From: a virus
Strand: one strand, 5' to 3'
UHGV virus genome: UHGV-1586583
Length of the DNA stretch: 39,678 nucleotides
The notes beneath the pieces are model-generated. The model saw only the letters and a program-made list of their open reading frames with translations. It was not told the origin of the DNA and did not search any database. Below are positions 8,360 to 37,090 of the stretch, piece after piece; positions within the stretch are counted from its first letter, which is position 1, and each line of letters opens with the position of its first letter. Position numbers and translations under genes: made by a program.

Positions 8360-8361
8360 AG

Positions 8362-8387
8362 AAATCCCGCCAATCGGCGGGATTTTT
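8362..8387 (+). terminator. Rho-independent terminator of the lyd/dar operon
   Basis: AAATCCCGCC-AATC-GGCGGGATTT hairpin followed by a T-run, placed between the convergent dar operon and the minus-strand gene ending at 8391. Confidence 0.6.
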
Positions 8388-8390
8388 ACC

Positions 8391-9485: not shown

Positions 9486-10266
9486 TTTCCACCTCTTCCG
9501 TGGTGTTTTCTTGCAGTTCTGTTAATGCAGCACGACATAGGTTCCGGGCATTGGCTATAGCCACACTTTTGACTTCATCCGTCATCGTGCAGGTAATGTA
9601 CTGATCGAGTTCTTCAGCGCGGATGATGCTTTTGCCAATCAGAAACTGTATTTGCCAGAGCAGATCGGCATCCATAATCAGAATTTCTGCCGGGCCTTCA
9701 GGGCCAGCCGGGAAGGAAACATAAGACTGTTTGCCCAGGCCGACAACTCGACAACTTGCTTCAAGAATTGCGCGCTTGAGGTCTGACTTTATAACGGAAA
9801 CAGGTTGATTTTCACCAGTGATTACGCCGTTGACATGGAAAGGCATGTAGCTTGAAATACGCTCCACTTTCCACACGCCAGCAAGCGATCCTTCATGCAG
9901 CACAATGGGGGTAACCGCGAGTTTCATCTCACCATATAGCTGCTGGCAGATAGCTGGATTGCTGAATACATCTAAAGGCTCACATTCAAACAGCGGCGCA
10001 ATCTGCATGAGGTCCATCATGGTCATCCCTGGAGTACGAGCAGTAATGAATCTGCGCATACCAGTATCCATTGCGCTCCAGATTGCTACACCATGCTTTT
10101 TGCTCACTTCTTCAGTAAAGCCAAGGTGGCACATGATGGTTTTTTCGATAGCCAGATCGGAGATAGAAACCTTTTCGCCAGGTACACCATCATTATTGAT
10201 GGTCACTTCGACACTCTGGCCATTACGCAGGCGGTATTGAATTGTTTTAGTATTTTGTGCTGCCAT
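9478..10266 (-). CDS. Hypothetical protein, operonic partner of the PacB-like gene
   Basis: ORF overlaps the start of the downstream PacB-like gene by 8 nt. The track extends it to a TTG at 10386 (302 aa); I prefer the ATG at 10266 (MAAQNTK..., about 262 aa) because a separate small ORF ends 15 nt upstream. Confidence 0.45.
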   Translation of the reverse strand: MAAQNTKTIQYRLRNGQSVEVTINNDGVPGEKVSISDLAIEKTIMCHLGFTEEVSKKHGVAIWSAMDTGMRRFITARTPGMTMMDLMQIAPLFECEPLDVFSNPAICQQLYGEMKLAVTPIVLHEGSLAGVWKVERISSYMPFHVNGVITGENQPVSVIKSDLKRAILEASCRVVGLGKQSYVSFPAGPEGPAEILIMDADLLWQIQFLIGKSIIRAEELDQYITCTMTDEVKSVAIANARNLCRAALTELQENTTEEVESD

Positions 10267-14772: not shown

Positions 14773-17700
14773 ATGAACAAGCTATCTATGGGGGTATTTC
14801 GCTGTTCAAGTGTCAGCGAAATATTGAAATACATTAGGGCAATAACATCTCACCGAGCGCCGATTAAATACGGCGTGGAAAAGGTGGAAGGCAAAAGCTA
14901 TGACCGACTGCGCCGTGAGGCGAATCAGAAGGCGATAGATTTGCTTAATTCGCTGGTGGACGGCGCGACACTGACAGATGAACAGCGCCAGATCCTGGCT
15001 GGGTACACCGGTGAAGGCGGCATTGGCGGGTCCGTCTCCGAATATTACACACCAAAGCCGATCGCTGAAGGTGTCTGGGAGATCATGAAGCTCTACGGCG
15101 CGGACGTAGGTAACACTCTGGAACCATCGGCGGGCACCGGCGTTTTTAATGAGACAAAACCGGTTGGTACGGTGATGACCGCGACTGAGATCAGCAGTGT
15201 TTCCGGTCGTATAAACCAGCTGTTACATCCGGAAGACAGCGTACAGATTTCCCCGTTCGAACAACTGGCTGTAAGCACGCCTAACGATTCATTTGACCAT
15301 GTTGTGGGTAACGTTCCGTTCGGTGGTCGTGATAACACACGCAACATCGATAAGCCTTACGCAGAAGAAACGGACATGGGTTCTTACTTCATGCTCCGCA
15401 TGCTGGACAAGATAAAGCCAGGCGGATTCATGTGCGTGATTGTGCCGCCGTCCATTGTTTCAGGTTCAAACATGAAGCGGTTACGCCTGCGCCTATCACG
15501 GAAAGCTGAATTTCTTGGTGCCCACCGCTTGCCTACCGGTACTTTTGACGCAAACGGGACCAGTACGGTCGTTGACGTGGTGCTGATGCGCAAACATCCG
15601 GCGGAGATGGCTGAGAAAATCCCCCTGGTGGATGAAGGCACTCTTGAATCGGCAAATGTGCTTTGGCCAACGTTTATTTCTGGCAAGTGGTTTGAAAAGG
15701 ACGGCCGCCGGTTTGTTCATGGCACTCAGGAGAAGGGATTCCAGGGGCGTATTGAGGTTCGTGCCGACGGGCAGATTGATAACCAGGCTCTTAAAGCGAA
15801 GCTGATTCATCGTTTCGAAAGTCGTATCGACTGGTCTTTGCTCGATATGGCTGAACCGTCACCGACCGCAGATGTTGTTGATGAAGGGGAAATGCGCCTG
15901 ATTAATGGCGTATGGCAAAAATATGCTGGTGGTCGCTGGATTGAAGCTGATGCCGGGAAGGAGCTGAAGATTGAGGTTGCCAGTTATGGCGCGGATAGCT
16001 GGGAGGCTCTTCAGCGTAACCTGACTACAACAGAAGGCCGTCTCGGTATGACATTTACCCAGATGGCAAATGTCCGCGATAAGTACACCACATCAATCAG
16101 CGACGATATGGTGCAGCTGGTGGACTGGATTAACAGCCAGCCTGAAAAATACCGTGAACGCTTGTATCGTGGGGCGATGATTGGCCGGATGTTAATTGAA
16201 TATCAGGACATGAAGGCCGCCGGGCATAGTGCTGAACAAATCGAACAGCAGCGCCTTTCTCTGGTATCCCGTTTGCAGGCAGAGATTGACCGTTTTGGTA
16301 ACCCCGGTCGCGGTCCGATAGCGAAATTATCGGGGAGCGGTGCGCGCGCCTGGTTTGCTTTCCGTGGTGCAATTAAGCTGGATGGCACTATTTCTGACGA
16401 GCTGACAGGAAAACTGGTTACGCATGATTCCAGCGCCAGTTATGACTCCACCAGCTATCAGGACACCCTGCGTTATCTCTACAGTGATCTCACTCGCGAT
16501 CCAATCCAGCTCGATGATTTCCGCCTTGCGTTTACCGGCGAACTGCCAGCCAGTGATGACGAGTTGCTTAATTTATTGGCCAGCACCCCTGGCATTGCGG
16601 TTTCACCGTATGGCGGGATTGTTCCGTTCGCCCGCGCCACCAGCGGCGACATTAACGAGATAGTGGCTCCAAAGCAGGAATTCCTCGCCACGCTCCCCGA
16701 CGGTCCAGTAAAGAACAACGTCCTTAATCAGCTGGCAGCGATCGAAGAGAAGCGCATCAAGACGCCAGCAGAGAATATCCGGTTTAAGCTCAATAGCCGT
16801 TGGTTCGACCGTTCCGTGATTCTGGAATTTTTGCAGGAAAACGGCTATCCGGATCTGCGCTATGTGCAGTCAGTGCAGCTGGAAGGCGACGAAATGGTTT
16901 CTGACACCTATCACGGTGGTGATGGTCTGTTCGTCGGGCACCGATACGGTGTCGTCCAGCGCAAGGATAAAGAAACAGGCGAGATCCGCTACGAGTGGGA
17001 CCGTAAATCAGGTGAAAACGCGACCGGGTTCCCGGCACAGCTGGAAAAGTATCTCAATGGTGCGCGTATCGGTGGCAAAGATAGCGCGACGGCGAACGGC
17101 TACCGCGAGCAGATGGCACTGCTTGAGGACCAGTTCAATAAGTGGATCAAGACGCACGATCGCTACGATGAGCTGGTTGCCAAATACAACGATGTGTTCA
17201 ATAGCAATATCCCGTATGAACACTCTGGCGATCCGCTTGGGTTGAAGGGATTAAGCGGTAAGCGCCAGCCATTTGATTACCAGAATAGCGAGGTGCGCCG
17301 ACTGTCCGAAGATGGGCGCGGCATCCTGGGCTTCGGCACCGGGCTGGGTAAAACCACGACCGCGCTGGCGCTTGAGGCGTTCAACTATGAGAACGGTCGC
17401 TCCACCCGTACTGCGTATGTAGTGCCTAAATCAGTGCTGGAAAACTGGTATTACGAAGCAAAAGAATTCCTGAGTGAAGAGGCATTCAGTAACTACCTGT
17501 TCGTCGGTCTTGATGTGCTGATGGATGGCGATCAGATTCGCCAGGTGCCGGTGCTCGATGAGAACGGTAAACCTGTTCTTGGTACTGATGGCACTCCAGT
17601 TATGCGCGATGCTCTTAAGCTGGCAGATGAAGCCACTATCACGGCGCGGATGAACGCGATCCCGCACTCAAATTACCGTGCAGTCGTGTTTACCAAAGAA

Positions 17701-20700
17701 CAATACGCCCGCATTCCGCTACGTGATGACACCGTAGATGAGCATGCACAGGATATGCTTTATGACTTCGTTGCCGCCGGGCGCGTAGCCAGCGCAATGG
17801 ACTCCGACTCCCACCGCAAAGAGGCCGCGCGTCGCCGGGTATTGTCGGAGTATTCAGATACCGGCACCGAAAAAGCAGAGAAGTATCCGTACTTTGAGGA
17901 TATGGGCTTCGATAGTGTGATCGCTGACGAAGGTCACAACTACCGCAATAGCTATAAAAATGGTCGCGAAGCGTCACAACTGGCCTATCTGCCCACCAGC
18001 GCGGTGGCGCAATCGGCGCGGGATATGGCAATTAAAAACGCGTACCTGATGAAAAAGAATGGTGGGCGCGGACCGGTTCTCCTGACTGCAACGCCAGTCG
18101 TTAACACCCCGATCGATGCATACAACATGCTTTCTCATGTTCTGCCGAAGGAATACTGGCAGAAGATGGGGATCTACAGTCCTGATGACTTCGTAAAATT
18201 CTTCGGCAAGACCAGGCTGGAAACGGTACAGAAAATCAGCGGTGAAGTTGAAGAAAAAATGGCGCTGGTGGGCTTTGAAAACCTTGATGCGCTGCGCGGC
18301 ATATTCCATCGCTGGACAACGCTTAAAACGGCGGAAGACGTTAAGGATACCGTGGAGATCCCGGAACTGGACGAACACCAGCAGGATGCACCACTTACGG
18401 AAGAACAACTGGCGGCGTATGAAGAATTGCGTCAGCAGGCGGAAGCGGCAGCCAAAGCCAACAATGGCGTAACGACCTCGGTCAATGAAGACGGCGTGAT
18501 TGAGCACGAGAAAGCCCGTCCGATCTTCTCAATAATCAGGGATATGGACCGCGTATGTACTGACATGGACCTGTACTATCGCAGGATCACCTATCGTTTC
18601 CTGCCGGAGTACGCCGATGCGGTGCAGCAGCTGGCGGACAGTTTGCCTAAACAAGCCACCAGCGAAGACGACGACAGTGATGATTCGATCACGCAGCAAT
18701 CGCAATACTCCCTGATAGATAAGGGCGAGTTTATTCAGTTGCAGGTACCGGAAGCATTTGAGCAGGAAGTGAATAAGCGCCTGGCCAAGTTTGGCATTGA
18801 CGAACAGACCGTAACTCACCCCGTTACGCCCAAATACGCGAAGCTGATTGCCACGCTGAAGGAGTTTTTCCCGGAAGGTAAGCAAATCATCTTCACCGAT
18901 GAAAAAACGCAACACCAGAAGCTCAAGCGCATTATCTGCAATGCTCTTAACCTTGAACCTTCAAAGGTGGGGATCCTGAATGCTCAGACGGTTGCCGAGG
19001 CAGGTAAAACCGGTAAGAAACTGAAAGCGGTTAAACCACCGAAAGAGCTACCGGATGAACCAACAGATGCACAGATAGCGAAATACAACGAGCAAATGGC
19101 TCTGTATGACGCCTATATCGCGCAGCAAAATGAAATGTCGCTGGGTGGGCTGGAAAAGATTGCTGCCGACTTCCAGGAGGGCCGGACTCCGATCATCATC
19201 TGCAACAAAAAGGCAGAGGTGGGTATCAACCTGCATCGAGGAACGACTGACATCCATCATCTGACGTTGCCATGGACACCAGCCAGTATCGCACAGCGTA
19301 ACGGTCGCGGTGCCCGAGTTGGTTCCAACCGTGCAAGCGTTCGCGTTCACTACTACTGCGGCAAGGGTTCTTTCGATGAATACCGACTGAAGACGCTGAA
19401 GCGTAAAGCAGGCTGGATCTCCGATATCCTCCGCTCAGATAAGTCTGAAATGGAGAACGCCGACGCCAACGATATGATCGAAATGCAGATGTATACCGCT
19501 AAGGATGATGGCGAACGTCTGGCAATGATGCAGGTTCAAATGGATAAGGCGAAAGCCGCGCAACGCGCTCGCCAGAAAGAACAGGCTACTATCGACCTTC
19601 AGAACTACATCAAGGCGCAGCACGCAGCTGGCGAGGATGTGGAGGTACTTACCGCTGAATTAGAGCGAAGCAAAGCGGAACTTGAAAAGACCACCGCCGA
19701 GGTAGCTAAATTCAAACAGGCGGCAATGGCCAAGGCAGCGGATAACGCAGACTGGAAGGCCCGCTGGGGGAGTGTCCATCACACAGACCGTATGTTGTTA
19801 GCACAGTATCGCGCGTCGTTGAAAAGCGCCATTCAGCGCAAGGCTAATATCTCTCAAGCCATCTCCCGCTATGAGAAATTATTGAACCGTACTCAGAAGG
19901 CCGCGACGGATATCAAACGCCTGCGCCCGCTGGTGGAGGATGCAATAAATAAAGGCATTCTGGATGTAGATCCTGACCTGGTTAACCATGCGAGTGAGTT
20001 CCTTGTTATCGGCGATCGCTCATGGCGTGTAGGCCAATACTACGATTGTGCCGGTGATATCGTTCGCATTAAGTCGCTGGACTTCGACAGCCAGCGCGCA
20101 GACGTGGAGATCATCTTTACCTTCAAAGGCACCAAATCGGGTAACTGGGATGTGAAGACGCTGGATAAACAGGTGGATGTAACTCCCGATGAAGATGCTG
20201 TTATGCAGAAAATCAGTGGTGGCGTCTCCATCGCCGGGATTAACGACATCATTTCCTGTGACGATTTCTACCGTTTCCAGCAGCGCGGCATGATCAAAAT
20301 CACTGACTCATACGGCGTTCAGACTACAGAGTCAGGCTATAGCATTGATTTTGTTGGCACCTATACGGACCCACTGAAGCATGCGGTTTACCCGGATCGC
20401 CGTGACGGCGCGCTGAAGTCGTCAATTGCAAAATGGGTGCTTGGTATGATGTCGGAAGGGAATAACCGCCAGATCCGTTCGGCAGAAACATTCCTGGTTG
20501 AATTGTTTGGCTCCAATTATGGCGATGTAATCGCGTCATACGGAGATACGCTATCCCCTGAAGCAATTCAGGAGAAAATAGCGGATGCGATCGCCAGAAT
20601 GCCGGAAAAAACAAGCCAGGGGTCTACTCGTAACGGGGATTCTGAACTTGAAGTCACCAATGCCATTTTCGGTACCAATGAGTTCCGGGCGTCAGATTAT

Positions 20701-21540
20701 GAGATCACCACAGCACAGTTTGGCACCATTGGCATTTACAGCAATAAAGACGAGATCAAGCAGGCAATGGACGCAGCAAGTGCGCGCATTGCAGCAGAAC
20801 GGAAAGCCAATCTGAATCATGCAGTCGCCGCGCTGACTCAATCGTGGGTAACAGCAATCAGGGAGGCCGCCACCACAGGAAAAATCACACCGGCAATTGC
20901 GGATGTCGTAAACGACGGCTCTAAATTTATGGATGCCTATCAAATGGATGCGGTGAAGTTGCCATCAGCCTATGGTCAACTCAGCTATCGCATGACCTAC
21001 AACCTGGTATCAATGTTTTCCGACCTTGCCATCCTTGGGCTGGTGGATCTTAACGAGGTTACGCCGGAATTGCTCAGCATGCGCAAGAATCATGTGGAGA
21101 TATTGCAGAGAGTTAACACGGTTCTTGCCGGACGCACCGATGAAGAGAAACAGGCCGACGCTGATCGGATAAACCTGGCCCTTGGCAACATCACGGAGGA
21201 AGAAATTGCCGCCAGAAACGAGAAACAAGAAGAGTTATCATCAATACAGGGTGATGCCACCAGCATAGCTCAGTCTCTTGGTCTGAATTATCGCGTATCC
21301 ACCGCCGACCTGAAGATGATGTACGCACCAAAATTCGCCGCTGGCGAGGTATTTGGGCTTCAGGAAGCCTCAGGCATGAAAGGCGTTCTTTTCCGTGCGA
21401 AAGACGCAATCAAGGCGAAATTCGGCGCTCGCTGGCTGCCAGCGAAGGCGAAGAACAGCGATTTCCCGGGTAACTGGTGGATTATCGAGACAAAACACAA
21501 CGTGGCGGACGTTCTGGCCGTCATCCAACAATACGCATAA
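14773..21540 (+). CDS. darB: DarB, giant virion-packaged antirestriction protein (methyltransferase plus helicase domains)
   Basis: 2255-aa ORF, matching the length I recall for P1 DarB. N-terminal AdoMet-MTase-like motifs (EPSAGTGVF, VVGNVPFG); helicase Walker A GFGTGLGKTT and DEGH box (IADEGHNYRN). SD AAGGA upstream of the ATG. Confidence 0.85.
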   Translation: MNKLSMGVFRCSSVSEILKYIRAITSHRAPIKYGVEKVEGKSYDRLRREANQKAIDLLNSLVDGATLTDEQRQILAGYTGEGGIGGSVSEYYTPKPIAEGVWEIMKLYGADVGNTLEPSAGTGVFNETKPVGTVMTATEISSVSGRINQLLHPEDSVQISPFEQLAVSTPNDSFDHVVGNVPFGGRDNTRNIDKPYAEETDMGSYFMLRMLDKIKPGGFMCVIVPPSIVSGSNMKRLRLRLSRKAEFLGAHRLPTGTFDANGTSTVVDVVLMRKHPAEMAEKIPLVDEGTLESANVLWPTFISGKWFEKDGRRFVHGTQEKGFQGRIEVRADGQIDNQALKAKLIHRFESRIDWSLLDMAEPSPTADVVDEGEMRLINGVWQKYAGGRWIEADAGKELKIEVASYGADSWEALQRNLTTTEGRLGMTFTQMANVRDKYTTSISDDMVQLVDWINSQPEKYRERLYRGAMIGRMLIEYQDMKAAGHSAEQIEQQRLSLVSRLQAEIDRFGNPGRGPIAKLSGSGARAWFAFRGAIKLDGTISDELTGKLVTHDSSASYDSTSYQDTLRYLYSDLTRDPIQLDDFRLAFTGELPASDDELLNLLASTPGIAVSPYGGIVPFARATSGDINEIVAPKQEFLATLPDGPVKNNVLNQLAAIEEKRIKTPAENIRFKLNSRWFDRSVILEFLQENGYPDLRYVQSVQLEGDEMVSDTYHGGDGLFVGHRYGVVQRKDKETGEIRYEWDRKSGENATGFPAQLEKYLNGARIGGKDSATANGYREQMALLEDQFNKWIKTHDRYDELVAKYNDVFNSNIPYEHSGDPLGLKGLSGKRQPFDYQNSEVRRLSEDGRGILGFGTGLGKTTTALALEAFNYENGRSTRTAYVVPKSVLENWYYEAKEFLSEEAFSNYLFVGLDVLMDGDQIRQVPVLDENGKPVLGTDGTPVMRDALKLADEATITARMNAIPHSNYRAVVFTKEQYARIPLRDDTVDEHAQDMLYDFVAAGRVASAMDSDSHRKEAARRRVLSEYSDTGTEKAEKYPYFEDMGFDSVIADEGHNYRNSYKNGREASQLAYLPTSAVAQSARDMAIKNAYLMKKNGGRGPVLLTATPVVNTPIDAYNMLSHVLPKEYWQKMGIYSPDDFVKFFGKTRLETVQKISGEVEEKMALVGFENLDALRGIFHRWTTLKTAEDVKDTVEIPELDEHQQDAPLTEEQLAAYEELRQQAEAAAKANNGVTTSVNEDGVIEHEKARPIFSIIRDMDRVCTDMDLYYRRITYRFLPEYADAVQQLADSLPKQATSEDDDSDDSITQQSQYSLIDKGEFIQLQVPEAFEQEVNKRLAKFGIDEQTVTHPVTPKYAKLIATLKEFFPEGKQIIFTDEKTQHQKLKRIICNALNLEPSKVGILNAQTVAEAGKTGKKLKAVKPPKELPDEPTDAQIAKYNEQMALYDAYIAQQNEMSLGGLEKIAADFQEGRTPIIICNKKAEVGINLHRGTTDIHHLTLPWTPASIAQRNGRGARVGSNRASVRVHYYCGKGSFDEYRLKTLKRKAGWISDILRSDKSEMENADANDMIEMQMYTAKDDGERLAMMQVQMDKAKAAQRARQKEQATIDLQNYIKAQHAAGEDVEVLTAELERSKAELEKTTAEVAKFKQAAMAKAADNADWKARWGSVHHTDRMLLAQYRASLKSAIQRKANISQAISRYEKLLNRTQKAATDIKRLRPLVEDAINKGILDVDPDLVNHASEFLVIGDRSWRVGQYYDCAGDIVRIKSLDFDSQRADVEIIFTFKGTKSGNWDVKTLDKQVDVTPDEDAVMQKISGGVSIAGINDIISCDDFYRFQQRGMIKITDSYGVQTTESGYSIDFVGTYTDPLKHAVYPDRRDGALKSSIAKWVLGMMSEGNNRQIRSAETFLVELFGSNYGDVIASYGDTLSPEAIQEKIADAIARMPEKTSQGSTRNGDSELEVTNAIFGTNEFRASDYEITTAQFGTIGIYSNKDEIKQAMDAASARIAAERKANLNHAVAALTQSWVTAIREAATTGKITPAIADVVNDGSKFMDAYQMDAVKLPSAYGQLSYRMTYNLVSMFSDLAILGLVDLNEVTPELLSMRKNHVEILQRVNTVLAGRTDEEKQADADRINLALGNITEEEIAARNEKQEELSSIQGDATSIAQSLGLNYRVSTADLKMMYAPKFAAGEVFGLQEASGMKGVLFRAKDAIKAKFGARWLPAKAKNSDFPGNWWIIETKHNVADVLAVIQQYA

Positions 21541-21573: not shown

Positions 21574-22014
21574 ATGGCCACACTATCTGATACAATAAAA
21601 CCGAATAAAACATATCTTGAGGCGGTACTGCGTACGGCATTGTTAGGAAAGACAGAAGACGAATACGTTGATTTCTTCCTGTCAGGGCTACGCGGGCGAT
21701 TACTGAAAAATCCCCGCCTGTACCGCAGCTATGGCCCATACTGGCCGGAAATTAAAAAATTATTACTGGAGCGCGGTTATGGTAATTTCGGTCGTCTCGT
21801 TGACCGTGACGTTCGCAAAATTTACCGTTATGACCGCCCGGCGCTGACACTCATAGCCGCGACGCTCTACAGCCAGGAGCGTTTTGATAATGGTCAGATA
21901 TACTCAGCCTGGCATTTACTGCCAGTGCCTGAAGAGGTTGACGACCAGGACTATGAGTTTGAGTCTTACGATTTGGAAGTTGAAGCCTTAGCACAGGCTG
22001 GAGAGAAAACTTGA
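21574..22014 (+). CDS. ulx: Ulx-like protein
   Basis: 146-aa ORF immediately downstream of darB and upstream of the putative lxc. Naming is by position only. Confidence 0.4.
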   Translation: MATLSDTIKPNKTYLEAVLRTALLGKTEDEYVDFFLSGLRGRLLKNPRLYRSYGPYWPEIKKLLLERGYGNFGRLVDRDVRKIYRYDRPALTLIAATLYSQERFDNGQIYSAWHLLPVPEEVDDQDYEFESYDLEVEALAQAGEKT

Positions 22015-22259
22015 AAAAGCGATACTACACAGTAAAGCATGGGACGCTACGAGCATTACAAGAGTTTGCTGACAAGCATAACGTTGAGGTGCGCAGGGAA
22101 GGGGGAAGTAAAGCTCTGCGCATGTACCGTCCGGACGGAAAATGGCGGACGGTCGTCGATTTCAAAACTAACAGCGTTCCCCAGGGCGTCCGCGATCGGG
22201 CATTCGAGGAATGGGAGCAGATCATCATAGATAACGCATTGCTCCTGAATGCTGATTAA
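22011..22259 (+). CDS. lxc: Lxc/Bof-like C1 co-repressor
   Basis: 82-codon ORF with a TTG start, overlapping the stop of the upstream gene. This matches my recollection of P1 bof/lxc, but it was not verified by alignment. Confidence 0.4.
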   Translation: MKKRYYTVKHGTLRALQEFADKHNVEVRREGGSKALRMYRPDGKWRTVVDFKTNSVPQGVRDRAFEEWEQIIIDNALLLNAD

Positions 22260-22263
22260 GAAC

Positions 22264-22292
22264 TCTCCGGCCTAGGGAGATTAGGCCGGAGA
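22264..22292. terminator. Hairpin between convergent lxc and the SIR2-like gene, candidate bidirectional terminator
   Basis: TCTCCGGCC-(11 nt loop)-GGCCGGAGA inverted repeat at the boundary where base composition switches to AT-rich. No clean T-run on either side. Confidence 0.4.
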
Positions 22293-22300
22293 TAAATATA

Positions 22301-23605
22301 CTATATAAACTTAGATATAATATCGTGAATCTGTTGTAGCGGGATTTCTTCCATCTTACTCTTAATAAGAGAGCGGTTAGATGCTGTCAGTGAAGGCCAT
22401 TTTGTTTTCCAGGCTAGATATGCTCGCCATGAGTAGCCTGTTTCGTAAGGTTTATTCATATAAGTCATTGAGTGTTCAACCGCATGTATGTATTTTTTCT
22501 CAAAGTTGGTTCCTTTTACTTCAAATAAACTACCGAAATAAATAAGCCATTTTGCCAGGTGTTCATACTGCTCCCATGCGCCAGACTCTTTAGTAAGATC
22601 TATTTTTTTATCTATTATATCACAAAAAACATTTAATACCTTTTCATCATTCCAGCTATATCCAGATGATGAAATGGAGGAAATGATATGATAAAAAGAA
22701 TCCTCTAACTTCAAGAACTCTATTTTATACTCTCTTCCGTTTTTTATTACCGATTTGATTGAGTGCCTCAATTTGTCTTTTATTTTTTTTGCTTCTGGAA
22801 TTTTCTTGTTAAGTTTTCTAAAGAAATCAGACACCTCTGTTTTATCTATAACCCTAATCCCAAAGCAGGAAAAATAGTAATCTTTAATAGGTTGCAATAG
22901 TTTCCCTCGGGAAATAAGGAAAATATTGGAGGACATTACGTTGTCCCGTGAAAATACCTTATATTCATTTATAATCGCCTTGAGGTTCGCGTCACTTAGA
23001 GAATAGCCAAGAATAACAATAGTGTTTTCATGTAGAACTGTGCTTAGTTTATTTGAAAAGTAAGAATTACCATTTATAAATCTGAAATAATCCTCGCTAG
23101 TAACAACCATATCTGATGGGGAGTCTATAGAGCCGTGAACATGGTAGACTTTAACCTCACAATTATATTTTGGAATTGGCAGGCCGGGGGTGATTGTACA
23201 CGTTCGATTCTCTCCAGCCAGTTTTTCTGCTAACTTGTCATAATTTGTCGTAATTACTTTAAATGTGTTTTCTTTGAAAAAGTCTTGAATATATTCAATT
23301 GATGGATCAAGTTCGATTGAGGCTATGATTTTCTCAATCTCCTGGTAAATATTTTTCCCCGAAAGTATAAATTTTAGTGCAATAACCTGAGCAGCCTCTT
23401 CAAGGCTAAGGTCTTTTGCTTTTCCATCAGGAAATAATTCCTCTTTGAGTGAGTCACCATCCTTCAATAAACCGCACAGTTGCTCCAATAAAGATTGCCA
23501 ACTTGGGGCTTTATCATCAGAAACAGCCTTTGAAAATCCAGTGCCTGTAAGAAAGCACAGCCTATGTGTAGCTGCTGCATAGGCAATTTCTATATACTCG
23601 CTCAT
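22301..23605 (-). CDS. SIR2-like (sirtuin-fold NADase) domain protein with uncharacterized C-terminal domain; candidate anti-phage defense effector
   Basis: 434 aa. N-terminal region carries the defense-type SIR2 hallmarks: Gly-rich loop CFLTGTGFSKAV, VITTNYD (N121) and YHVHGS (H157), then VILGYSLSD. The C-terminal 200 aa or so has no motif I recognise. The gene is strongly AT-rich against its neighbours, has its own GGAG ribosome-binding site, and occupies the position of the P1 res/mod genes. Confidence 0.7.
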   Translation of the reverse strand: MSEYIEIAYAAATHRLCFLTGTGFSKAVSDDKAPSWQSLLEQLCGLLKDGDSLKEELFPDGKAKDLSLEEAAQVIALKFILSGKNIYQEIEKIIASIELDPSIEYIQDFFKENTFKVITTNYDKLAEKLAGENRTCTITPGLPIPKYNCEVKVYHVHGSIDSPSDMVVTSEDYFRFINGNSYFSNKLSTVLHENTIVILGYSLSDANLKAIINEYKVFSRDNVMSSNIFLISRGKLLQPIKDYYFSCFGIRVIDKTEVSDFFRKLNKKIPEAKKIKDKLRHSIKSVIKNGREYKIEFLKLEDSFYHIISSISSSGYSWNDEKVLNVFCDIIDKKIDLTKESGAWEQYEHLAKWLIYFGSLFEVKGTNFEKKYIHAVEHSMTYMNKPYETGYSWRAYLAWKTKWPSLTASNRSLIKSKMEEIPLQQIHDIISKFI

Positions 23606-23661
23606 TACTTACTCCATTTACTTATAGTTCTACGGAGAAGTATACCCTAATGCATTGACGT

Positions 23662-24303
23662 TTATAGATAATTTCCTTTTCCTGTTAATACTCCCTTAGG
23701 CACCTGTTTTTGTGCCAGCGTTTGGGTTCCGCGAATTATGTTAATCAGAGGGCTTAGTAACGATGGTTCCTGGCGTGCCTCAACTTCTCCAGCCATTGCC
23801 CTGATGTAGTCTGCGCTGGCAACGTTGTTGTATTCCGTCGCAAAGCAACAGAGTAACGTCAGAACATGCTCTGTCGTTATTTCGCTCCAGTTGATGTTGA
23901 AAAATTCATCGCCTTTTTTATCGTGTTCGGAATCGAAGATGCTTTGGTGGAGGATGTATTTGCCGGATTCCTTGCGCGGTAACTTGATTGCTTTCTGGCG
24001 TTCCAGCTCCTTATAAATCTGCATGGCCTCAATTAGTACCGGCCTGCCGTTCATGAAGGGATCGCGCAACCTTACACGCTGGCCAACTCGACCAGTAATA
24101 AAGCTGTTTTCCTCTTCCACCAGCACGATAAAACCCTTTTCCTCTTTTTCTCGCAATTCGCGCAGCAGCTGGAGTTCCATATCGCGGCGGCGTTCAGGGT
24201 AGCTGGTCCGCTCAGCCATTATCAGCTCGTTGTTGATCCATGCAGCAGTCATTGACGCCGGTTTACCGACGCTCATCGAAACAACGCATATTTTCTTATC
24301 CAT
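23662..24303 (-). CDS. mat: Mat-like particle maturation protein
   Basis: ORF between ref and the SIR2-like gene. Preferred start is the ATG at 24303 with SD AGGGG; the track gives a GTG at 24330. Assigned by position relative to ref. Confidence 0.45.
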   Translation of the reverse strand: MDKKICVVSMSVGKPASMTAAWINNELIMAERTSYPERRRDMELQLLRELREKEEKGFIVLVEEENSFITGRVGQRVRLRDPFMNGRPVLIEAMQIYKELERQKAIKLPRKESGKYILHQSIFDSEHDKKGDEFFNINWSEITTEHVLTLLCCFATEYNNVASADYIRAMAGEVEARQEPSLLSPLINIIRGTQTLAQKQVPKGVLTGKGNYL

Positions 24304-24491
24304 AGCGCCCCTACAAAAAAGAAAAGCCACCAGCGGCGGCTTAGCAATACAACTGAAGGTAGCGCCCGGTACTCAGACTGTGCCGTCCATGGAATATTTG
24401 AAAAGGGATCCATCCGTACCGGGCATGTGATGATTCTGACTGAAGTCACTTGTCAGTTGTCAATTATTTCAGATTAAAAATAATATATTTA

Positions 24492-25052
24492 TTAGTGCAT
24501 GATGTTTGCCATCTCATAGGCGTCAGCCAGCAACTCCATCTCTGACTTGTTCAGCAAGGTGAATTCTTTCTTGCCTCCAACCACACCATCGGCATGAACA
24601 GGGACCAGCCAGGGGTATTTTTCTCTTACTTCAGCCGGTGCTGCATGCTGGTGGTGCCATCTACAAAGTGGCAACTGCTTTTTGTGACAACCCGGCGCGG
24701 TACGACCGGAGATATGGTGCAGAGACACCTCTTCAGATATTACTCCATGCATATAGCAGGCAATGCAGGGGAGAGCGCCAAGAGCATTGGCTATGCGCCG
24801 TTCCTCCGCCGTCGGTGTTCGTCCCTTCAAGCCACGAGATTTTATTTTTACCGCACTTTTCCGCGTTTTGCTGGCTGGTGGGCGCTCTTTCTGTTTAGCG
24901 ATACGGCGGTCGATAGAATCCCGCATTTTCTGATATTGCGATTCTCGCCAGGCGGGGTCAGCCAACTTTTCCCGTTGCCGAGCGATCGCTCGTTCTCTGG
25001 CTGCCTTCTGCCACTCGCGGCGCTGTTCAAGTTTTTGTTCGATTGTTTTCAT
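24492..25052 (-). CDS. ref: Ref, HNH-family recombination-enhancement endonuclease
   Basis: 186 aa with a basic N-terminal region and HNH-like core (CIACYMHG...SLHHISGRTAPGCHKKQLPLCRWHHQ), matching my recollection of P1 Ref. Confidence 0.8.
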   Translation of the reverse strand: MKTIEQKLEQRREWQKAARERAIARQREKLADPAWRESQYQKMRDSIDRRIAKQKERPPASKTRKSAVKIKSRGLKGRTPTAEERRIANALGALPCIACYMHGVISEEVSLHHISGRTAPGCHKKQLPLCRWHHQHAAPAEVREKYPWLVPVHADGVVGGKKEFTLLNKSEMELLADAYEMANIMH

Positions 25053-25661: not shown

Positions 25662-26693
25662 CTAATCGCCATCTTCCAGCAGGCGCACCATTGCCCCCGT
25701 TTCACTATCCAGGTTACGAATGTAGTTCATGACAATATTTACGTTGGTCCAGCCACCAGCTTGCATGATCTCCGGTATTGAAACTCCGGCGCGGGCCATA
25801 TCTCGCGCGGCTCCGACACGGGCACTGTGTCCAGACCAGGCCAGGTACCTCTGGCCAGAGTCATCCTTAGCCCCGTAAATCAATCGGTGAGTTGCTTCAA
25901 AAATCCCTTCCAGGGCGCGAGTTGATAGCTGGCTGGTGGCAGATGGCGCGGCAACACCATTTTTTCTGACACGGCAAAACAAGTAGTTATTCGGATCATC
26001 AGCCACACCAGAGACAGAAATCCATCGCTCAACCAGTTTAGTTACCCCCAGACTAAGTGCCTTCTCTACACCAGCGGTGCTAACCAGCGTTTTCGTTCTG
26101 CCAATATGGATTAACATTCTCCCACCGTCAGTACGTGAGATATCTTTAACTCTGATCCTAGAAATTTCGGCTATACGTAACAGGGTGTTATAAGCAATCC
26201 CCAGAAATGCCAGATTACGTATATCCTGGCAGCGATCGCTATTTTCCATGAGTGAACGAACCTGGTCGAAATCAGTGCGTTCGAACGCCAGCGCCTGTTT
26301 TGCACGCTCACCGGCATCAACGTTTTCTTTTCGGATCCGTCGCATGACCAGTGAAACAGCATTGCTGTCACTTGGTCGTGGCAGCCCGGACCGACGATGA
26401 AGCATATTTAGCTGGCCCAAATGTTGCTGGATAGTTTTCACTGCCAGACCGCGCGCCTGAAGATATAGAAGATAATCGCGAACATCTTCAGGTTCTGCGG
26501 GAAACCATTTCCGGTTATTCAACTTGCACCATGCCGCCCACGATCGGCAAACGGACAGAAGCATTTTCCAGGTATGCTCAGAAAACGCCTGGCGATCCCT
26601 GAACATGTCCATCAGGTTCTTGCGAACCTCATCACTCGTTGCATCGACCGGTAATGCAGGCAAATTTTGGTGTACGGTCAGTAAATTGGACAT
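25662..26693 (-). CDS. cre: Cre tyrosine site-specific recombinase
   Basis: 343-aa protein beginning MSNLLTVHQNLPALPVDATSDEVRKNLMDMFRDRQAFSEHTWKMLLSVCRSWAAWCKL... and ending ...RLLEDGD, which I recognise as Cre. loxP lies about 420 bp upstream. Confidence 0.97.
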   Translation of the reverse strand: MSNLLTVHQNLPALPVDATSDEVRKNLMDMFRDRQAFSEHTWKMLLSVCRSWAAWCKLNNRKWFPAEPEDVRDYLLYLQARGLAVKTIQQHLGQLNMLHRRSGLPRPSDSNAVSLVMRRIRKENVDAGERAKQALAFERTDFDQVRSLMENSDRCQDIRNLAFLGIAYNTLLRIAEISRIRVKDISRTDGGRMLIHIGRTKTLVSTAGVEKALSLGVTKLVERWISVSGVADDPNNYLFCRVRKNGVAAPSATSQLSTRALEGIFEATHRLIYGAKDDSGQRYLAWSGHSARVGAARDMARAGVSIPEIMQAGGWTNVNIVMNYIRNLDSETGAMVRLLEDGD

Positions 26694-34469: not shown

Positions 34470-34721
34470 TTATTTTTTTGGTGCATCCTCGTTCTGATAC
34501 ACCGGATCGCTCCCTTTTGGCAACTGGAGGCTTAACTGCCGGTAGTGCCGTAGCCGTTCCATGAAATAGGCGCGCAGGTTTTCCGGTTGCTCACGGGCCA
34601 CCTGCTCTGCAATCACAGGTATATTCAGCCGTTCTTTGTAAGCAACGCCGCTGGCGGCAAGGTCTACGTTCACCTTGTCTCGCTCTTCCTGGCTTTTAGC
34701 TGCTATATTTCGATCTGACAC
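34470..34721 (-). CDS. hot: Hot, homolog of the DNA polymerase III theta subunit
   Basis: 83-aa protein whose [43 protein letters not shown] segment parallels E. coli HolE ([36 protein letters not shown]...). Confidence 0.75.
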
Positions 34722-34753
34722 AAGAAACCTCCAGGAGTTAGTGGATCAGGCAC

Positions 34754-35104
34754 ATGCACAATAACGTTCTCAATGTTAGCCGTTCAATTCAGACAATCAG
34801 AGACTGCACCAGTGTGGTGGCATCAATCCCATTGCGAAACAGCATAGACGAACTGCAAATTCGTGTATTGAATCCGAATCAGGCTAATAAGCAATTGCGC
34901 TTTATTTTGACGCTGAAAAGTGAAACAGAGGGGATAAAGCACAGCGTAAAAGTGTTTTCTGAGGCCATTCTGCTTAATGGGAAGCTCCGGCATCTGGTAA
35001 GGCCAGAACGTCAATATCCTGACGTCCTGGCGCGTGAAAAAGACCTTCTTTCTGAAGTTCAGGATAGGGTGATCGATTTCGTCAAATGCTATCCCCTGCA
35101 TTGA
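34754..35104 (+). CDS. Hypothetical protein
   Basis: 116-aa ORF on the plus strand between hot and the minus-strand block. No recognisable motif. Confidence 0.35.
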   Translation: MHNNVLNVSRSIQTIRDCTSVVASIPLRNSIDELQIRVLNPNQANKQLRFILTLKSETEGIKHSVKVFSEAILLNGKLRHLVRPERQYPDVLAREKDLLSEVQDRVIDFVKCYPLH

Positions 35105-35946
35105 GGGCAGGTGTTCCCTTCCGCAAAGTAGGGAAAATTGCTATCAAGTTCATCACACCATCTGCGATGGTCGTAGCACCAAAAAGCCTCCCACGGTAAA
35201 CCAAAAGACTTCATCCACTGGGACACTCGATCTGGTATATCTGCTGGTGGCAGTTCTTCTGGCAATAATTTGCCTGATAATTCCCTTTCCGCCCGCGACA
35301 GCATTTTTTTGAGGCTCGCGTTCTCTTTTTCAGCCACCAGCGGCAATAAAGCCCTGGCCATCTTATGAACCAATAGTGCATCAATAATGCCAAGCGTATG
35401 CCCCGGCTTAATGTTTAATGCCGCCTCAAGGTGACACCTTTCCAAGTCACTTTTCTCGGCTTGTTTATGATGATCTGGTGTAATAACGTCGCCCAAAACA
35501 CGGCTAATTCTTTCTCGTAATTGCTGGGTGCCAGCACACTTGATCGCTGTATCGTGGAGACGGTTAACCAGTTCGCGATAAACATGCGGCTTAATGCGGA
35601 TACGTTCACCGGTGACGCCCTTTCCTGGCGCTGGCACCGAACTATCCGGAATATCCGGATAGTTGCCAGCCTCGTAAGCTACCCACAGCCAGTGCATGAA
35701 TGTTTCAGTGGACACACAACCACAGTCCACATCGATTTTTCCGCGTTGCTGTCCCAGCCAATGCTCAAAATTCAATCTACACGTATTACTTTCATGTTGC
35801 TCTTTTTGTCTCAAGGCCAGCATCTGCTGGGCTATTTCCAATACTTCATCTGCCGTATATCCAGCACCGTGACCATACATTTCGATACGGGAAATAATCT
35901 CTGATATGCGCTCTTCAGTGATTCTGGTCATTTCTTTTTGCGCCAT
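35089..35946 (-). CDS. Hypothetical protein containing a GNYPDIP motif
   Basis: 285-aa ORF; shares a nucleotide-identical 17-bp segment with the gene at 37348..38586. Confidence 0.45.
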   Translation of the reverse strand: MAQKEMTRITEERISEIISRIEMYGHGAGYTADEVLEIAQQMLALRQKEQHESNTCRLNFEHWLGQQRGKIDVDCGCVSTETFMHWLWVAYEAGNYPDIPDSSVPAPGKGVTGERIRIKPHVYRELVNRLHDTAIKCAGTQQLRERISRVLGDVITPDHHKQAEKSDLERCHLEAALNIKPGHTLGIIDALLVHKMARALLPLVAEKENASLKKMLSRAERELSGKLLPEELPPADIPDRVSQWMKSFGLPWEAFWCYDHRRWCDELDSNFPYFAEGNTCPQCRG

Positions 35947-36302
35947 TTCTTTTCACATTCCTTAGTCCATTCTTCAATGTTCATTTTGGCAATATCAGTC
36001 ATTCCATCACCTAAGAAATACTTTTTCCGGTATGTCTTGCACTTAAACCACACTACAACAGCCACCAGCCAGAAAATAAAAGGCCATACAGCAATACCAA
36101 CGACAGCCGCGATAAAGCCCAATAGCCATAAATGAAGCTCTCCAACTTCTGTTTCCGGCAATATTCTTAAAGAATTAAACAGCAGGATGAACGAATGGTC
36201 GTATGCATTGGCAGTACAAGACATGCAATCCATATAATTAAAGTCATAGCCTGCGGCTGCCGCCCATAATGGGCGGTCAAGAAAATGTTTTAGTGTCATC
36301 AT
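35928..36302 (-). CDS. Hypothetical membrane protein
   Basis: 124-aa ORF with a hydrophobic segment (LHLWLLGFIAAVVGIAVWPFIFWLVAVVVWF). Confidence 0.4.
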   Translation of the reverse strand: MMTLKHFLDRPLWAAAAGYDFNYMDCMSCTANAYDHSFILLFNSLRILPETEVGELHLWLLGFIAAVVGIAVWPFIFWLVAVVVWFKCKTYRKKYFLGDGMTDIAKMNIEEWTKECEKKWRKKK

Positions 36303-36308
36303 ATAAAT

Positions 36309-36698
36309 TTAAGGTTCAGACCAGTTATCTTCAATAGCAATGCTTAATCTTTGTAGCCATTCTGCTAATTTCAGCATTGCTTCTCTTTCGCTTAAACCAC
36401 GAGGAAAATCATCAAGCGAAATTGTTGGCTTGAATCCCCCGCAATTATCCATTTCAACTGTCAGATTTTGTTCCAGCACGGTATTTCTTACGCGGCTATT
36501 GTGCCGGAGCAAATATACTGAGCGTGATTTATTGGTTTTGTGGTCTAGCTTATATTCGGTAAGTATCATCTGGCTTTTGCCATGATTATTACCTCTCCAC
36601 ATACTTACCTCACTTAATAAAACAACTCCATGCGTAGTTGATGATTTTTTCCCACGTAATATAAATCTGCACTCCGGCAGTAAAACCAAAGCCAACAA
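36309..36698 (-). CDS. Hypothetical protein
   Basis: 129-aa ORF in a co-directional minus-strand gene block. Confidence 0.4.
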   Translation of the reverse strand: MLALVLLPECRFILRGKKSSTTHGVVLLSEVSMWRGNNHGKSQMILTEYKLDHKTNKSRSVYLLRHNSRVRNTVLEQNLTVEMDNCGGFKPTISLDDFPRGLSEREAMLKLAEWLQRLSIAIEDNWSEP

Positions 36699-36780
36699 TT
36701 GCTGAAAAAATCAAAACATTTACTTTTGACATTATAAATTTTCTCTCGGTGTCGTAGGTGATAGCACCATAATTGATAAT

Positions 36781-37014
36781 TTAGTGAGTTAGCAGTTCCA
36801 TTTTTTTGATGATTTCCGCATGAGCATCATCGTTATCAACACTTAGCTCGTTTAATGCTTCTCGCACTACATCAACTTCTTCAGGCTGAAAGAAGTCGTC
36901 GCGGTAATCACCAAATAGAACCGAAACCAGCCTGCCACCAGCAACATCAAGATTGGCGCTAACAGGTGGCTCTTTGCCATCCTCAAATTCGACTACAAAA
37001 GTTAATTTTCCCAT
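36781..37014 (-). CDS. Hypothetical small acidic protein
   Basis: 77-aa ORF in the minus-strand block. Confidence 0.35.
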   Translation of the reverse strand: MGKLTFVVEFEDGKEPPVSANLDVAGGRLVSVLFGDYRDDFFQPEEVDVVREALNELSVDNDDAHAEIIKKMELLTH

Positions 37015-37090
37015 CGTTACCCCCAGAAGATAAAAATAGCGGCAATCGCCATAGCTACGCCTACAATCGCAAATGCTTCAGGCCAGCTTA

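What the first reader, a model, noticed from the sequence alone, without database searches (positions are those of the whole stretch)
22260..23661. AT-rich compositional island bounded by a hairpin and the mat 3' end
The SIR2-like gene is visibly AT-rich (runs such as aaataaactaccgaaataaataag and tctattttttttatctattatatcac) against balanced flanking backbone. The left boundary coincides with the hairpin at 22264..22292. This looks like horizontally acquired cargo swapped in by recombination in flanking conserved genes.
Basis: seen in the sequence. Interest (0 to 1): 0.45.

Follow-up and report, generated by a model that had tools for sequence, protein, structure and literature searches.

The report
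Swappable SIR2 defence cassette in P1-like phage-plasmid
The AT-rich stretch is a real, horizontally exchanged one-gene cassette sitting in the slot where phage P1 carries its classic restriction system, and it encodes an untested SIR2 enzyme that most likely kills infected cells by destroying NAD+ to block rival phages.

Summary
Window 22260..23661 has 35.8% GC against 48.8% elsewhere, the lowest of any 1402-bp stretch in the window. The window is a P1-like phage-plasmid, and the island fills the lxc-mat gap where P1 carries EcoP1I res/mod.

- **Variable slot:** in 77 related loci the slot holds 12 alternative contents. These include an empty site, EcoP1I, the validated defence protein CapRelSJ46, JukA-like, PIN, DUF2971, GNAT and three diverged alleles of this SIR2 gene. 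All cargos are AT-rich.
- **Boundaries:** the left one is exactly the lxc stop codon. The hairpin lies inside the cassette, and almost every cargo class brings its own. The right boundary is graded, reaching 60-120 nt into the mat 3' end.
- **Exchange mechanism:** flank alleles do not track cargo, and there are no terminal repeats. This points to homologous recombination in the conserved flanks.
- **The gene:** a 434-aa protein with a SIR2_2 domain, intact NAD-site motifs and a family-specific alpha-solenoid C-terminal domain that evolves faster than the SIR2 domain. Its architecture resembles a miniature DSR2. It belongs to no named defence system.

A NAD+-depleting abortive-infection role is inferred, not shown.

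The parts
22260..23661 (.). Variable cargo module: the segment with no counterpart in P1. It replaces P1 res-mod-IS5 (P1 coordinates 3469..9749).
   Evidence: Local BLAST against P1; GC 35.8%, z = -4.5; 12 alternative contents in 77 loci.
22264..22292 (.). GC-rich hairpin (11-bp stem, 7-nt loop) between the convergent lxc (+) and SIR2 (-) genes. It is a probable bidirectional terminator or 3'-end stabiliser and is part of the cassette, not of the backbone.
   Evidence: Flagged as terminator-like on the - strand. Almost every cargo class has a different strong hairpin at this place; EcoP1I has only a weak fold.
22301..23605 (-). 434-aa SIR2-family ORF. The stop codon is 22301..22303 and the ATG is at 23605.
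   Evidence: Pfam SIR2_2 at 83.8 bits against a 24.5 cutoff. Full-length match to phrog_7567, function unknown. Full-length homologues at 55-61% identity.
22847..23605 (-). N-terminal SIR2 (Rossmann) domain, aa 1-253, with invariant motifs GTGFS (21-25), TTNYD (119-123; N121) and HVHGS (155-159; H157).
   Evidence: Alignment A1 with residue numbering. HMMER alignment to DSR2 and ThsA chains. Foldseek best matches are the SIR2 domains of DSR2, ThsA and KomC.
22304..22846 (-). C-terminal all-alpha domain, aa 254-434, with an alpha-solenoid/HEAT-like fold. It is specific to this family and is the putative sensor or regulatory domain.
23606..23661 (-). 56-bp cassette-specific leader between the mat stop and the SIR2 start. 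It holds a Shine-Dalgarno GGAG at 23612..23615, 6 nt before the ATG.
   Evidence: Read from the sequence.
23661..23688 (-). Candidate sigma-70 promoter TTAACA-16 nt-TATAAA overlapping the last mat codons and the mat stop. This is inferred and weak, because the final T of the -10 hexamer is missing.
   Evidence: The same register reads TTAACA-16-TATAAT in the CapRelSJ46 cassette. The consensus scanner did not report it.
23662..23780 (-). mat 3' end (last 20-40 codons). Its sequence co-varies with the cargo class while keeping its length and the motif VPxGxLTGKxNYx*. This is the graded right-hand recombination boundary.
22011..22259 (+). lxc (modulator of C1), the conserved left flank. Homology among all cargo classes ends at its stop codon.
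23662..24330 (-). mat (maturation control), the conserved right flank.

Best explanation
The island is one allele of a swappable accessory cassette in the lxc-mat slot of P1-like phage-plasmids. In P1 itself this slot holds the EcoP1I type III restriction-modification genes, and in phage SJ46 it holds CapRelSJ46.

Cassettes consist of a private hairpin after the lxc stop, one to a few AT-rich genes, and a cassette-linked variant of the last codons of mat. They are exchanged between co-resident or co-infecting P1-like elements by homologous recombination in the conserved flanks (darB-ulx-lxc on one side, mat-ref on the other). The replacement and the flank shuffling are shown here. The recombination mechanism is inferred from them and from the absence of transposon-type ends.

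The cargo in this window is a single 434-aa protein. It has an N-terminal SIR2_2 NAD-binding domain with intact catalytic Asn121 and His157, and a family-specific alpha-solenoid C-terminal domain.

The proposed mechanism is inferred by analogy with DSR2 and ThsA. In the lysogen the enzyme is held inactive. A component of a superinfecting phage binds or remodels the solenoid domain. The SIR2 domain then hydrolyses NAD+, and the infected cell stops growing before the rival phage completes its cycle. This protects the clonal population that carries the phage-plasmid.
For: Hotspot and exchange:
- None of 19 P1-like phage records has the gene, although the flanks match at 97-98%. Only 62 of 707 plasmids hold the whole query.
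- 12 content classes occur in 77 loci, all at 32-43% GC except the empty spacer.
- The left breakpoint is at the lxc stop in all classes, and the right boundary is graded inside mat.
- The window's closest left flank (99.4%) belongs to a DUF2971-carrying locus and its closest right flank (99.5%) to a JukA-carrying locus. Both are closer than any other SIR2 locus.
- No direct or inverted repeats sit at the borders.

Defence character of the slot:
- The P1 allele is EcoP1I res/mod.
- The SJ46 allele is identical to PDB 7ZTB, CapRelSJ46, which is experimentally anti-phage (PMC9712102).
- Other alleles hit JukA (1e-65), PDC-S33, PDC-S31 and PDC-S34.

The protein:
- SIR2_2 at E = 1.6e-23, with invariant GTGFS, TTNYD and HVHGS motifs.
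- H157 aligns with the DSR2 residue mutated in the deposited H171A structures.
- The best structural matches are the SIR2 domains of DSR2, ThsA and KomC.
- The C-terminal domain is an alpha-solenoid, the fold class reported for the DSR2 CTD (PMC11850899 abstract).
- Between close alleles the C-terminal domain has 12 nonsynonymous and 3 synonymous changes, against 5 and 11 in the SIR2 domain (Fisher p = 0.011).
- Homologues sit at a prophage end next to the integrase in E. coli, in a Halomonas defence island, and beside a dGTPase-like HD protein in Pantoea.
- Three diverged alleles of the family (59% and 84% aa identity) occupy the same slot. About 131 of 699 P1-like-carrying complete E. coli genomes hold one.
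Against: - There is no experimental evidence for this family. PHROGs lists it as unknown function.
- It matches no full-length model in PADLOC or NCBIfam.
- A DefenseFinder survey of P1-like elements does not list it among the systems the paper names in its text.
- No strong promoter was found for the gene. The only candidate lacks the final T of the -10 hexamer, so expression in the lysogen is unproven. Read-through from the C1-repressed and late mat promoter is possible.
- The C-terminal domain is never found fused to another effector, so its sensor role has no support from domain shuffling.
- Some slot cargos (GNAT, AraC+EAL, a lipoprotein-like ORF) are not obviously defence genes, so residence in the slot does not prove defence.
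- 2 of 13 related SIR2 loci carry frameshifts.
Confidence: 0.72

Rival explanations
1. The SIR2 protein is not an anti-phage effector. It would be a lysogenic-conversion or phage-development factor: a protein deacylase or ADP-ribosyltransferase that modifies a host or phage protein. It might be expressed with mat from the C1-controlled and late promoters during P1 lytic growth.
For: - RefSeq names it 'SIR2 family NAD-dependent protein deacylase'.
- The gene lies directly downstream of mat on the same strand, with only 56 bp between them and no strong promoter of its own.
- The P1 annotation places a C1 operator and a late promoter in front of mat.
- Other cargos of the slot include a GNAT acetyltransferase and an AraC+EAL pair, which are not typical defence genes.
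Against: - The domain is Pfam SIR2_2. Its closest sequence and structure relatives are all defence NADases (ThsA, DSR2, KomC), not classical sirtuins.
- Homologues occur in defence islands and at prophage ends outside any P1 context, so the function does not depend on mat or on P1 development.
- The hotspot holds two validated defence systems.
Confidence: 0.15
2. The cassette is a counter-defence or addiction module that serves the phage-plasmid itself. It could kill cells that lose the plasmid, or protect P1 from host immunity, in line with the neighbouring anti-restriction genes darB and ulx.
For: - The left neighbours ulx and darB are annotated as anti-restriction functions.
- Other slot alleles, an R-M system and the fused toxin-antitoxin CapRel, can also act as addiction modules (established knowledge for R-M and TA systems; PMC10879196 discussion).
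Against: - A single polypeptide with no separate labile antidote is not an evident addiction system.
- No anti-defence protein with a SIR2 fold turned up in the sequence and structure searches run here.
- Homologues occur on chromosomes outside plasmids.
Confidence: 0.08
3. The low GC is an intrinsic feature of this part of the P1 backbone, caused by local mutational bias or regulatory AT-rich DNA, rather than a sign of foreign origin. Alternatively, the gene was inserted by a transposon or a site-specific element.
For: Other parts of the window also dip in GC, to 38-41% at 27001-27500 and 36001-37000.
Against: - Presence/absence and replacement polymorphism is directly observed, including an empty site with a 39-bp lxc-mat spacer.
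- There are no terminal repeats or target duplications.
- No recombinase gene lies within the island.
Confidence: 0.03

Closest known systems
DSR2 (defence-associated sirtuin 2, Bacillus subtilis)
   Same: - It is a single polypeptide with an N-terminal SIR2 NADase domain followed by an alpha-solenoid region. The best Foldseek matches of the model are DSR2 chains.
- The catalytic Asn and His align.
- DSR2 is activated by a phage tail tube protein and depletes NAD+ (abstracts of PMC11263360, PMC10981675 and PMC11850899).
   Different: - This protein has 434 aa against about 1000, with no middle domain and a solenoid of only about 180 aa.
- Sequence similarity is confined to the SIR2 domain.
- The NCBIfam Dsr2 equivalog scores 30.6 bits against a cutoff of 1400.
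- The trigger is unknown.
Thoeris ThsA (SIR2-SLOG NADase)
   Same: - The protein size is similar.
- The SIR2 domain is the closest in sequence: SeThsA 7uxt at E = 3e-9 and the PADLOC ThsA model at 7e-18.
   Different: - The C-terminal domain is an alpha-solenoid, not a SLOG/STALD nucleotide-binding domain.
- No ThsB/TIR gene lies in the cassette; the island holds a single ORF.
CapRelSJ46 and EcoP1I res/mod, the other occupants of the same slot
   Same: - They have the same genomic position, the same left junction at the lxc stop, the same type of private hairpin and the same AT-richness.
- CapRelSJ46 is likewise a single-polypeptide sensor-effector carried by a P1-like prophage (PMC9712102).
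   Different: The proteins and chemistry are unrelated: tRNA pyrophosphorylation for CapRel and DNA cleavage for EcoP1I. Both of those are experimentally validated, and the SIR2 protein is not.
Defence hotspots of P2-like phages and P4-like satellites (Rousset et al. 2022, PMC9122126)
   Same: A fixed position between conserved phage genes holds many alternative, mostly AT-rich anti-phage cassettes that are exchanged among related elements.
   Different: - The element here is a different kind, an extrachromosomal Punavirus phage-plasmid.
- The slot is bounded by lxc and mat.
- I found no paper in the searchable library that describes this slot as a hotspot.

Membership tests
Pfam SIR2_2 (PF13289) domain family | HMM score above the gathering threshold | tested here: met
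   83.8 bits against a cutoff of 24.5, covering aa 117-245.
Pfam SIR2_2 (PF13289) domain family | NAD-site motifs conserved: Gly-rich loop, catalytic Asn and catalytic His | tested here: met
   GTGFS 21-25, TTNYD 119-123 and HVHGS 155-159 are invariant in 36 homologues. H157 aligns with the His of DSR2 that is mutated in the deposited H171A structures.
DSR2 | Full-length match to the Dsr2 equivalog model (protein of about 1000-1200 aa with MID and CTD) | tested here: not met
   NF041819 scores 30.6 bits against a cutoff of 1400, and only aa 117-212 match. The PADLOC Dsr2 model gives 3e-8 over the SIR2 domain only.
DSR2 | NADase activated by a phage tail tube protein | not testable with these tools
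   This needs biochemistry and phage escape genetics.
Thoeris (ThsA/ThsB) | ThsA C-terminal SLOG/STALD domain that binds the gcADPR signal | tested here: not met
   PADLOC ThsA models match only aa 117-236. The C-terminal model is an all-alpha solenoid.
Thoeris (ThsA/ThsB) | Adjacent ThsB (TIR) gene | tested here: not met
   The cassette holds one ORF between lxc and mat. The same is true in all 14 SIR2-class loci.
Lamassu (LmuA-SIR2 with LmuB SMC) | Adjacent LmuB/SMC-like gene | tested here: not met
   The LmuA model hits at 2e-13 over aa 20-219 only, and the cassette contains no second gene.
SIR2-HerA | Adjacent HerA ATPase gene | tested here: not met
   It is a single-gene cassette.
PADLOC candidate PDC-S25 | Full-length match to the PDC-S25 profile (517-528 positions) | tested here: not met
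   The best hit, 5e-24, covers only profile positions 127-283, equal to aa 100-253, which is the SIR2 domain alone.
Phage-borne defence hotspot | A fixed position between conserved genes with many alternative cargos among close relatives | tested here: met
   12 content classes in 77 loci, with flanks 93-99% identical.
Phage-borne defence hotspot | Cargos include experimentally validated defence systems | tested here: met
   EcoP1I res/mod. CapRelSJ46 is identical to PDB 7ZTB and its anti-phage activity is reported in PMC9712102. JukA-like cargo hits at 1e-65.
Phage-borne defence hotspot | This particular cargo protects against phage | not testable with these tools
   This needs plaque assays with the cloned gene.

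The most novel reading that the evidence does not exclude
The 434-aa SIR2/alpha-solenoid protein would found a new single-protein anti-phage system, a 'mini-DSR2'. Its private, fast-evolving solenoid would directly recognise a phage protein and release NADase activity. The lxc-mat slot of P1-like phage-plasmids would be an unrecognised defence hotspot. Its other untested cargos would then be further new systems: DUF2971, PIN_12, GNAT, YaaC plus a deoxyribosyltransferase-like protein, AraC plus EAL, and a small lipoprotein-like ORF. The cassette-linked tail of Mat might carry the cargo promoter.
Probability: 0.45. Interest if true: 0.6.

Novelty: new variant of a known kind. Interest (0 to 1): 0.47.

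Why it matters
P1 is a classical phage, and its EcoP1I genes are a textbook restriction system. This analysis shows that those genes are only one allele of a slot that also holds CapRelSJ46 and about ten other cassettes. That turns a familiar map position into a compact place to look for new immune genes.

About 13% of complete E. coli genomes carry a P1-like element, and roughly a fifth of those carry a member of this SIR2 family. An untested, probably NAD+-depleting gene is therefore common in clinical and animal E. coli, Salmonella and Klebsiella. It could shape which phages, including therapeutic ones, can grow on these strains.

The general phenomena are already known: phage-borne defence hotspots and SIR2 NADase effectors. 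The gain is therefore incremental rather than conceptual.

Tried and rejected
- **Named defence systems.** PDC-S25, ThsA, LmuA, Dsr1/2 and SIR2-HerA were all rejected, because only the SIR2 domain matches and no partner gene is present.
- **Transposon or site-specific insertion.** No flanking direct or inverted repeats and no recombinase gene were found.
- **Reusable sensor module.** I tested whether the C-terminal domain is fused to other effectors. A profile search of 1.84 billion representatives found only 94 hits, all of the same SIR2 architecture or fragments of it. This gives no support for the idea and does not contradict it.
- **DNA-level donor.** Outside P1-like elements the island occurs only at two chromosomal places in complete E. 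coli genomes. The nearest proteins elsewhere are at most 61% identical. The donor remains unknown.
- **Promoter.** The consensus scan found none upstream of the gene. A manual candidate, TTAACA-16-TATAAA, is only loosely associated with minus-strand cargos across classes.
- **Genome-contig scan with Lxc.** It returned only two loci, one EcoP1I class and one DUF2971 class, and added nothing.
- **Literature.** No paper in the searchable library links SIR2 to P1-like elements or describes an lxc-mat hotspot. Subscription-only papers, such as comparative P1/D6 genomics, could not be searched.
- **Exact-sequence cluster look-up.** The look-up from the window translation failed. The identical P0001 worked, and its cluster members are annotated only as 'SIR2 family protein'.
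Full report
**What the window is.** The ORF map identifies a P1-like phage-plasmid. It contains:
- Cre (25662..26693, -), c8 (called cra in my working notes), ref (24492..25052, -) and mat (23662..24330, -)
- a 434-aa ORF (22301..23605, -)
- lxc (22011..22259, +), ulx (21574..22014, +) and darB (14773..21540, +)

Annotated relatives confirm the gene names: RCS47, SJ46 and P1. The window is 100% identical over the tested 2.9 kb to several E. coli plasmids of about 96-98 kb, such as NZ_CP103469.1.

**Checking the observation.**
- The stretch 22260..23661 has 35.8% GC, against 48.8% for the rest of the window.
- It is the lowest of all 1402-bp windows, at z = -4.5. The lowest value elsewhere is 40.7% (profile).
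- GC3 of the ORF is 0.331, against 0.500 +/- 0.048 for 27 other ORFs.
- The hairpin at 22264..22292 has an 11-bp perfect stem. It folds at -22.2 kcal/mol with z = -4.9.
- The ORF is a SIR2_2 protein.
- A local BLAST of the window against P1 leaves exactly 22260..23661 unmatched.
- One of the two quoted AT runs was transcribed with one T too many.

**The locus is a replacement hotspot.**
- In P1 the same gap between lxc and mat holds res, mod and an IS5, 6.4 kb in all.
- In SJ46 it holds a RelA/SpoT-family gene. In RCS47 lxc and mat are 39 bp apart.
- None of 19 P1-like phage records has the SIR2 gene. Of 707 plasmids that match the flanks, 62 have the whole query.

I fetched 80 IMG/VR loci with Lxc as the query. 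Seventy-seven loci in all (73 of these, the window and the three GenBank phages) contain both lxc and the mat core. The DNA between them falls into 12 classes:

| Cargo | Size (bp) | Loci |
|---|---|---|
| Empty spacer | 127-137 | 9 |
| Small lipoprotein-like ORF | 679 | 1 |
| GNAT, two related versions | 970 / 986-987 | 7 |
| PIN_12 | 1142-1152 | 6 |
| DUF2971 | 1288 | 10 |
| RelA/SpoT | 1364-1369 | 10 |
| SIR2 (including the window) | 1499-1513 | 14 |
| YaaC plus a nucleoside-deoxyribosyltransferase-like protein | 1796 | 4 |
| AraC plus EAL | 1837-1869 | 4 |
| JukA-like cluster | about 3660 | 4 |
| EcoP1I res/mod | 5180-6379 | 8 |

Every non-empty cargo is AT-rich, at 32-43% GC. The RelA/SpoT cargo of SJ46 is identical to PDB 7ZTB. 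[quoted passage not shown] PADLOC also recognises JukA (1e-65), PDC-S33, PDC-S31 and PDC-S34 among the cargos.

**Boundaries.**
- On the left, homology among all classes ends at the lxc stop codon (22257..22259). Each class continues with different sequence.
- In almost every class this sequence folds at once into its own GC-rich hairpin, at -12 to -25 kcal/mol. EcoP1I is the exception, at -9.
It is not a backbone landmark.
- On the right the boundary is graded. Mat keeps its length and the terminal motif VPxGxLTGKxNYx*, but its last 20-40 codons differ in a cargo-linked way.
- Against other classes, nucleotide identity to the window recovers between about 23720 and 23780.
- Identity of the last 150 bp of lxc is 92.7-99.3%. 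This is lower than for the whole 686-bp ulx-lxc block, at mostly 96.8-99.4%. Divergence therefore rises towards the cargo on both sides.

**How the cargo moves.**
- No direct or inverted repeats bracket the island, and it encodes no recombinase.
- Flank alleles are not partitioned by cargo. The left flank closest to the window (99.4%) belongs to a DUF2971 locus.
- The closest right flank (99.5%) belongs to a JukA locus. Other SIR2 loci reach only 99.0% and 98.9%.

This is the pattern expected if cassettes are exchanged by homologous recombination in the conserved flanks. That conclusion is an inference from the pattern, not a demonstration.

**The protein.**
- It belongs to a compact family of proteins of about 434 aa. 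Members are 55-61% identical over their full length and occur in Vibrio, Halomonas, Xenorhabdus, Pseudoalteromonas, Klebsiella, Pantoea, Pseudomonas and others.
- The motifs GTGFS (21-25), TTNYD (119-123) and HVHGS (155-159) are invariant (numbering).
- The closest solved relatives by sequence are SeThsA, DSR2, BcThsA and KomC. Similarity covers only the SIR2 domain.
- The AlphaFold model has pLDDT 84.9. Its best matches are the SIR2 domains of DSR2, ThsA and KomC.
- A profile of this domain found only 94 hits among 1.84 billion representative proteins. All were proteins of about 430-480 aa, or fragments. Ten distant ones all have SIR2_2 at the N-terminus.
- The architecture is therefore fixed, and the C-terminal domain is private to the family.

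**Not a member of a named system.**
- Dsr2 and Dsr1 equivalog models score 30.6 and 21.2 bits against cutoffs of 1400.
- PDC-S25, ThsA and LmuA models match the SIR2 domain only.
- PHROGs has a full-length family, phrog_7567, of unknown function.
- Sources name the protein only 'SIR2 family protein' or 'NAD-dependent protein deacylase'.

**Indications of a defence role.**
- Two occupants of the same slot are validated defence systems.
- The E. coli chromosomal homologue (56% identity) lies at the end of a lambdoid prophage next to the integrase.
- The Halomonas homologue lies in an island with HNH, DUF4145, HSDR_N, DUF87 and STAND genes. The Pantoea homologue lies beside an HD/HD_assoc protein.
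- Three diverged alleles of the family sit in the same P1 slot. The window type has a 96% subtype. L044 and L075 are 59% identical to the window and 84% to each other.
- Between the two close alleles, the C-terminal domain has 12 nonsynonymous and 3 synonymous differences. The SIR2 domain has 5 and 11. That gives dN/dS of 0.97 against 0.12, with Fisher p = 0.011.
- Family-wide identity to the query is 45% in the C-terminal domain and 62% in the SIR2 domain.

Fast evolution of a non-catalytic domain fits a recognition role. Relaxed constraint would also explain it.

**Prevalence.** Among 5426 complete E. coli genomes:
- 699 carry the P1-like ulx-lxc block
- 69 carry the window-type island at 80% coverage or more
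- 62 carry the L044/L075-type alleles

About one P1-like element in five therefore has a SIR2 of this family in the slot.

**Expression is the weakest point.**
- The gene follows mat on the same strand after 56 bp. It has a good Shine-Dalgarno sequence, GGAG, 6 nt before the ATG.
- The consensus scan finds no promoter there.
- By eye, TTAACA-16 nt-TATAAA overlaps the last mat codons and the mat stop (23688..23661, - strand). In the same register the CapRelSJ46 cassette reads TTAACA-16-TATAAT.
- The association of good hexamers with minus-strand cargos across classes is only partial.
- In P1, mat is preceded by a C1 operator and a late promoter, so read-through expression during lytic growth cannot be excluded.

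**Most likely mechanism.**
- *Shown:* the island is a horizontally exchanged single-gene cassette in a multi-allelic slot. It encodes a SIR2_2 protein with an intact NAD site and a private alpha-solenoid domain.
- *Inferred:* the protein is an NADase kept inactive until a component of a superinfecting phage acts on the solenoid domain. NAD+ depletion then aborts the infection.
- DSR2 works this way. Its SIR2 domain is coupled to an alpha-solenoid C-terminal domain that senses the phage tail tube (abstracts of PMC11263360, PMC10981675 and PMC11850899).
- I put about 0.9 on the cassette and recombination part, and about 0.6 on the NADase defence part.

**Novelty.**
- P1-like elements are known to carry variable defence genes. 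A DefenseFinder survey reports type III R-M, dGTPase, PrrC and CapRel (bioRxiv 10.1101/2025.09.12.675607). Gene flow of defence systems in phage-plasmids has also been described (PMC10879196).
- I found no paper in the searchable library that defines the lxc-mat slot as a hotspot, lists its cargos, or mentions this SIR2 family in P1-like elements. Subscription-only literature could not be searched.
- The finding is best described as a new variant of known kinds. It is a phage-borne defence hotspot whose cargo is a short SIR2-solenoid architecture outside the named SIR2 systems.

Noticed in passing
window 8358..9476: A second segment has no counterpart in P1 (1119 bp, GC 44.5%). It replaces the P1 isaB/IS1 region and holds a 265-aa ORF (8391..9188, -) with no Pfam or PADLOC hit. 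It may be another variable slot.
   Followed up: partly
window 34716..35330 and 35678..39678: About 4.6 kb at the right end of the window does not match the corresponding P1 region (the pmgT-pmgS side). Its ORFs of 285, 124, 129, 412 and 134 aa are uncharacterised; only the 412-aa one has a C-terminal DUF551. None hits PADLOC. The 36001..37000 part dips to about 40% GC.
   Followed up: partly
window 65..646: The Cin-type serine invertase gene is only about 70% identical in DNA to P1 cin, whereas most of the backbone is 96-98% identical. It is a diverged allele of the tail-fibre inversion recombinase.
   Followed up: no
window 23662..23780 (mat 3' end), and L001-L083 at the equivalent place: Mat keeps an invariant length and a C-terminal motif VPxGxLTGKxNYx*, yet its last 20-40 codons differ by cargo class. 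The LTGK and Y-x-stop codons coincide with -35-like and -10-like hexamers that point into minus-strand cargos. The arrangement is a perfect TATAAT in the CapRelSJ46 and YaaC cassettes.
   Followed up: partly
L015 10249..12046, L017 2349..4190, L008 6133..7104, L016 10249..11538, L004 10249..11402, L026 10249..10929: Other cargos occupy the same slot with no known function there: YaaC plus a nucleoside-deoxyribosyltransferase-like protein, AraC plus an EAL phosphodiesterase, GNAT acetyltransferases, DUF2971 (PDC-S31-like), PIN_12 (partial PDC-S34 match) and a 135-aa lipoprotein-like ORF.
   Followed up: partly
L030 and L082 (SIR2-class loci): Two of 13 related SIR2 cassettes have a frameshift that cuts the ORF to 274 and 338 aa. 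They are either decaying copies or assembly errors.
   Followed up: no
L088 5301..5924 and L089 258..881: In Pseudoalteromonas a 207-aa ORF with no Pfam domain lies 76 bp upstream of the SIR2 homologue on the same strand. No such gene accompanies the P1 or E. coli prophage copies, so it is probably not an obligatory partner.
   Followed up: no
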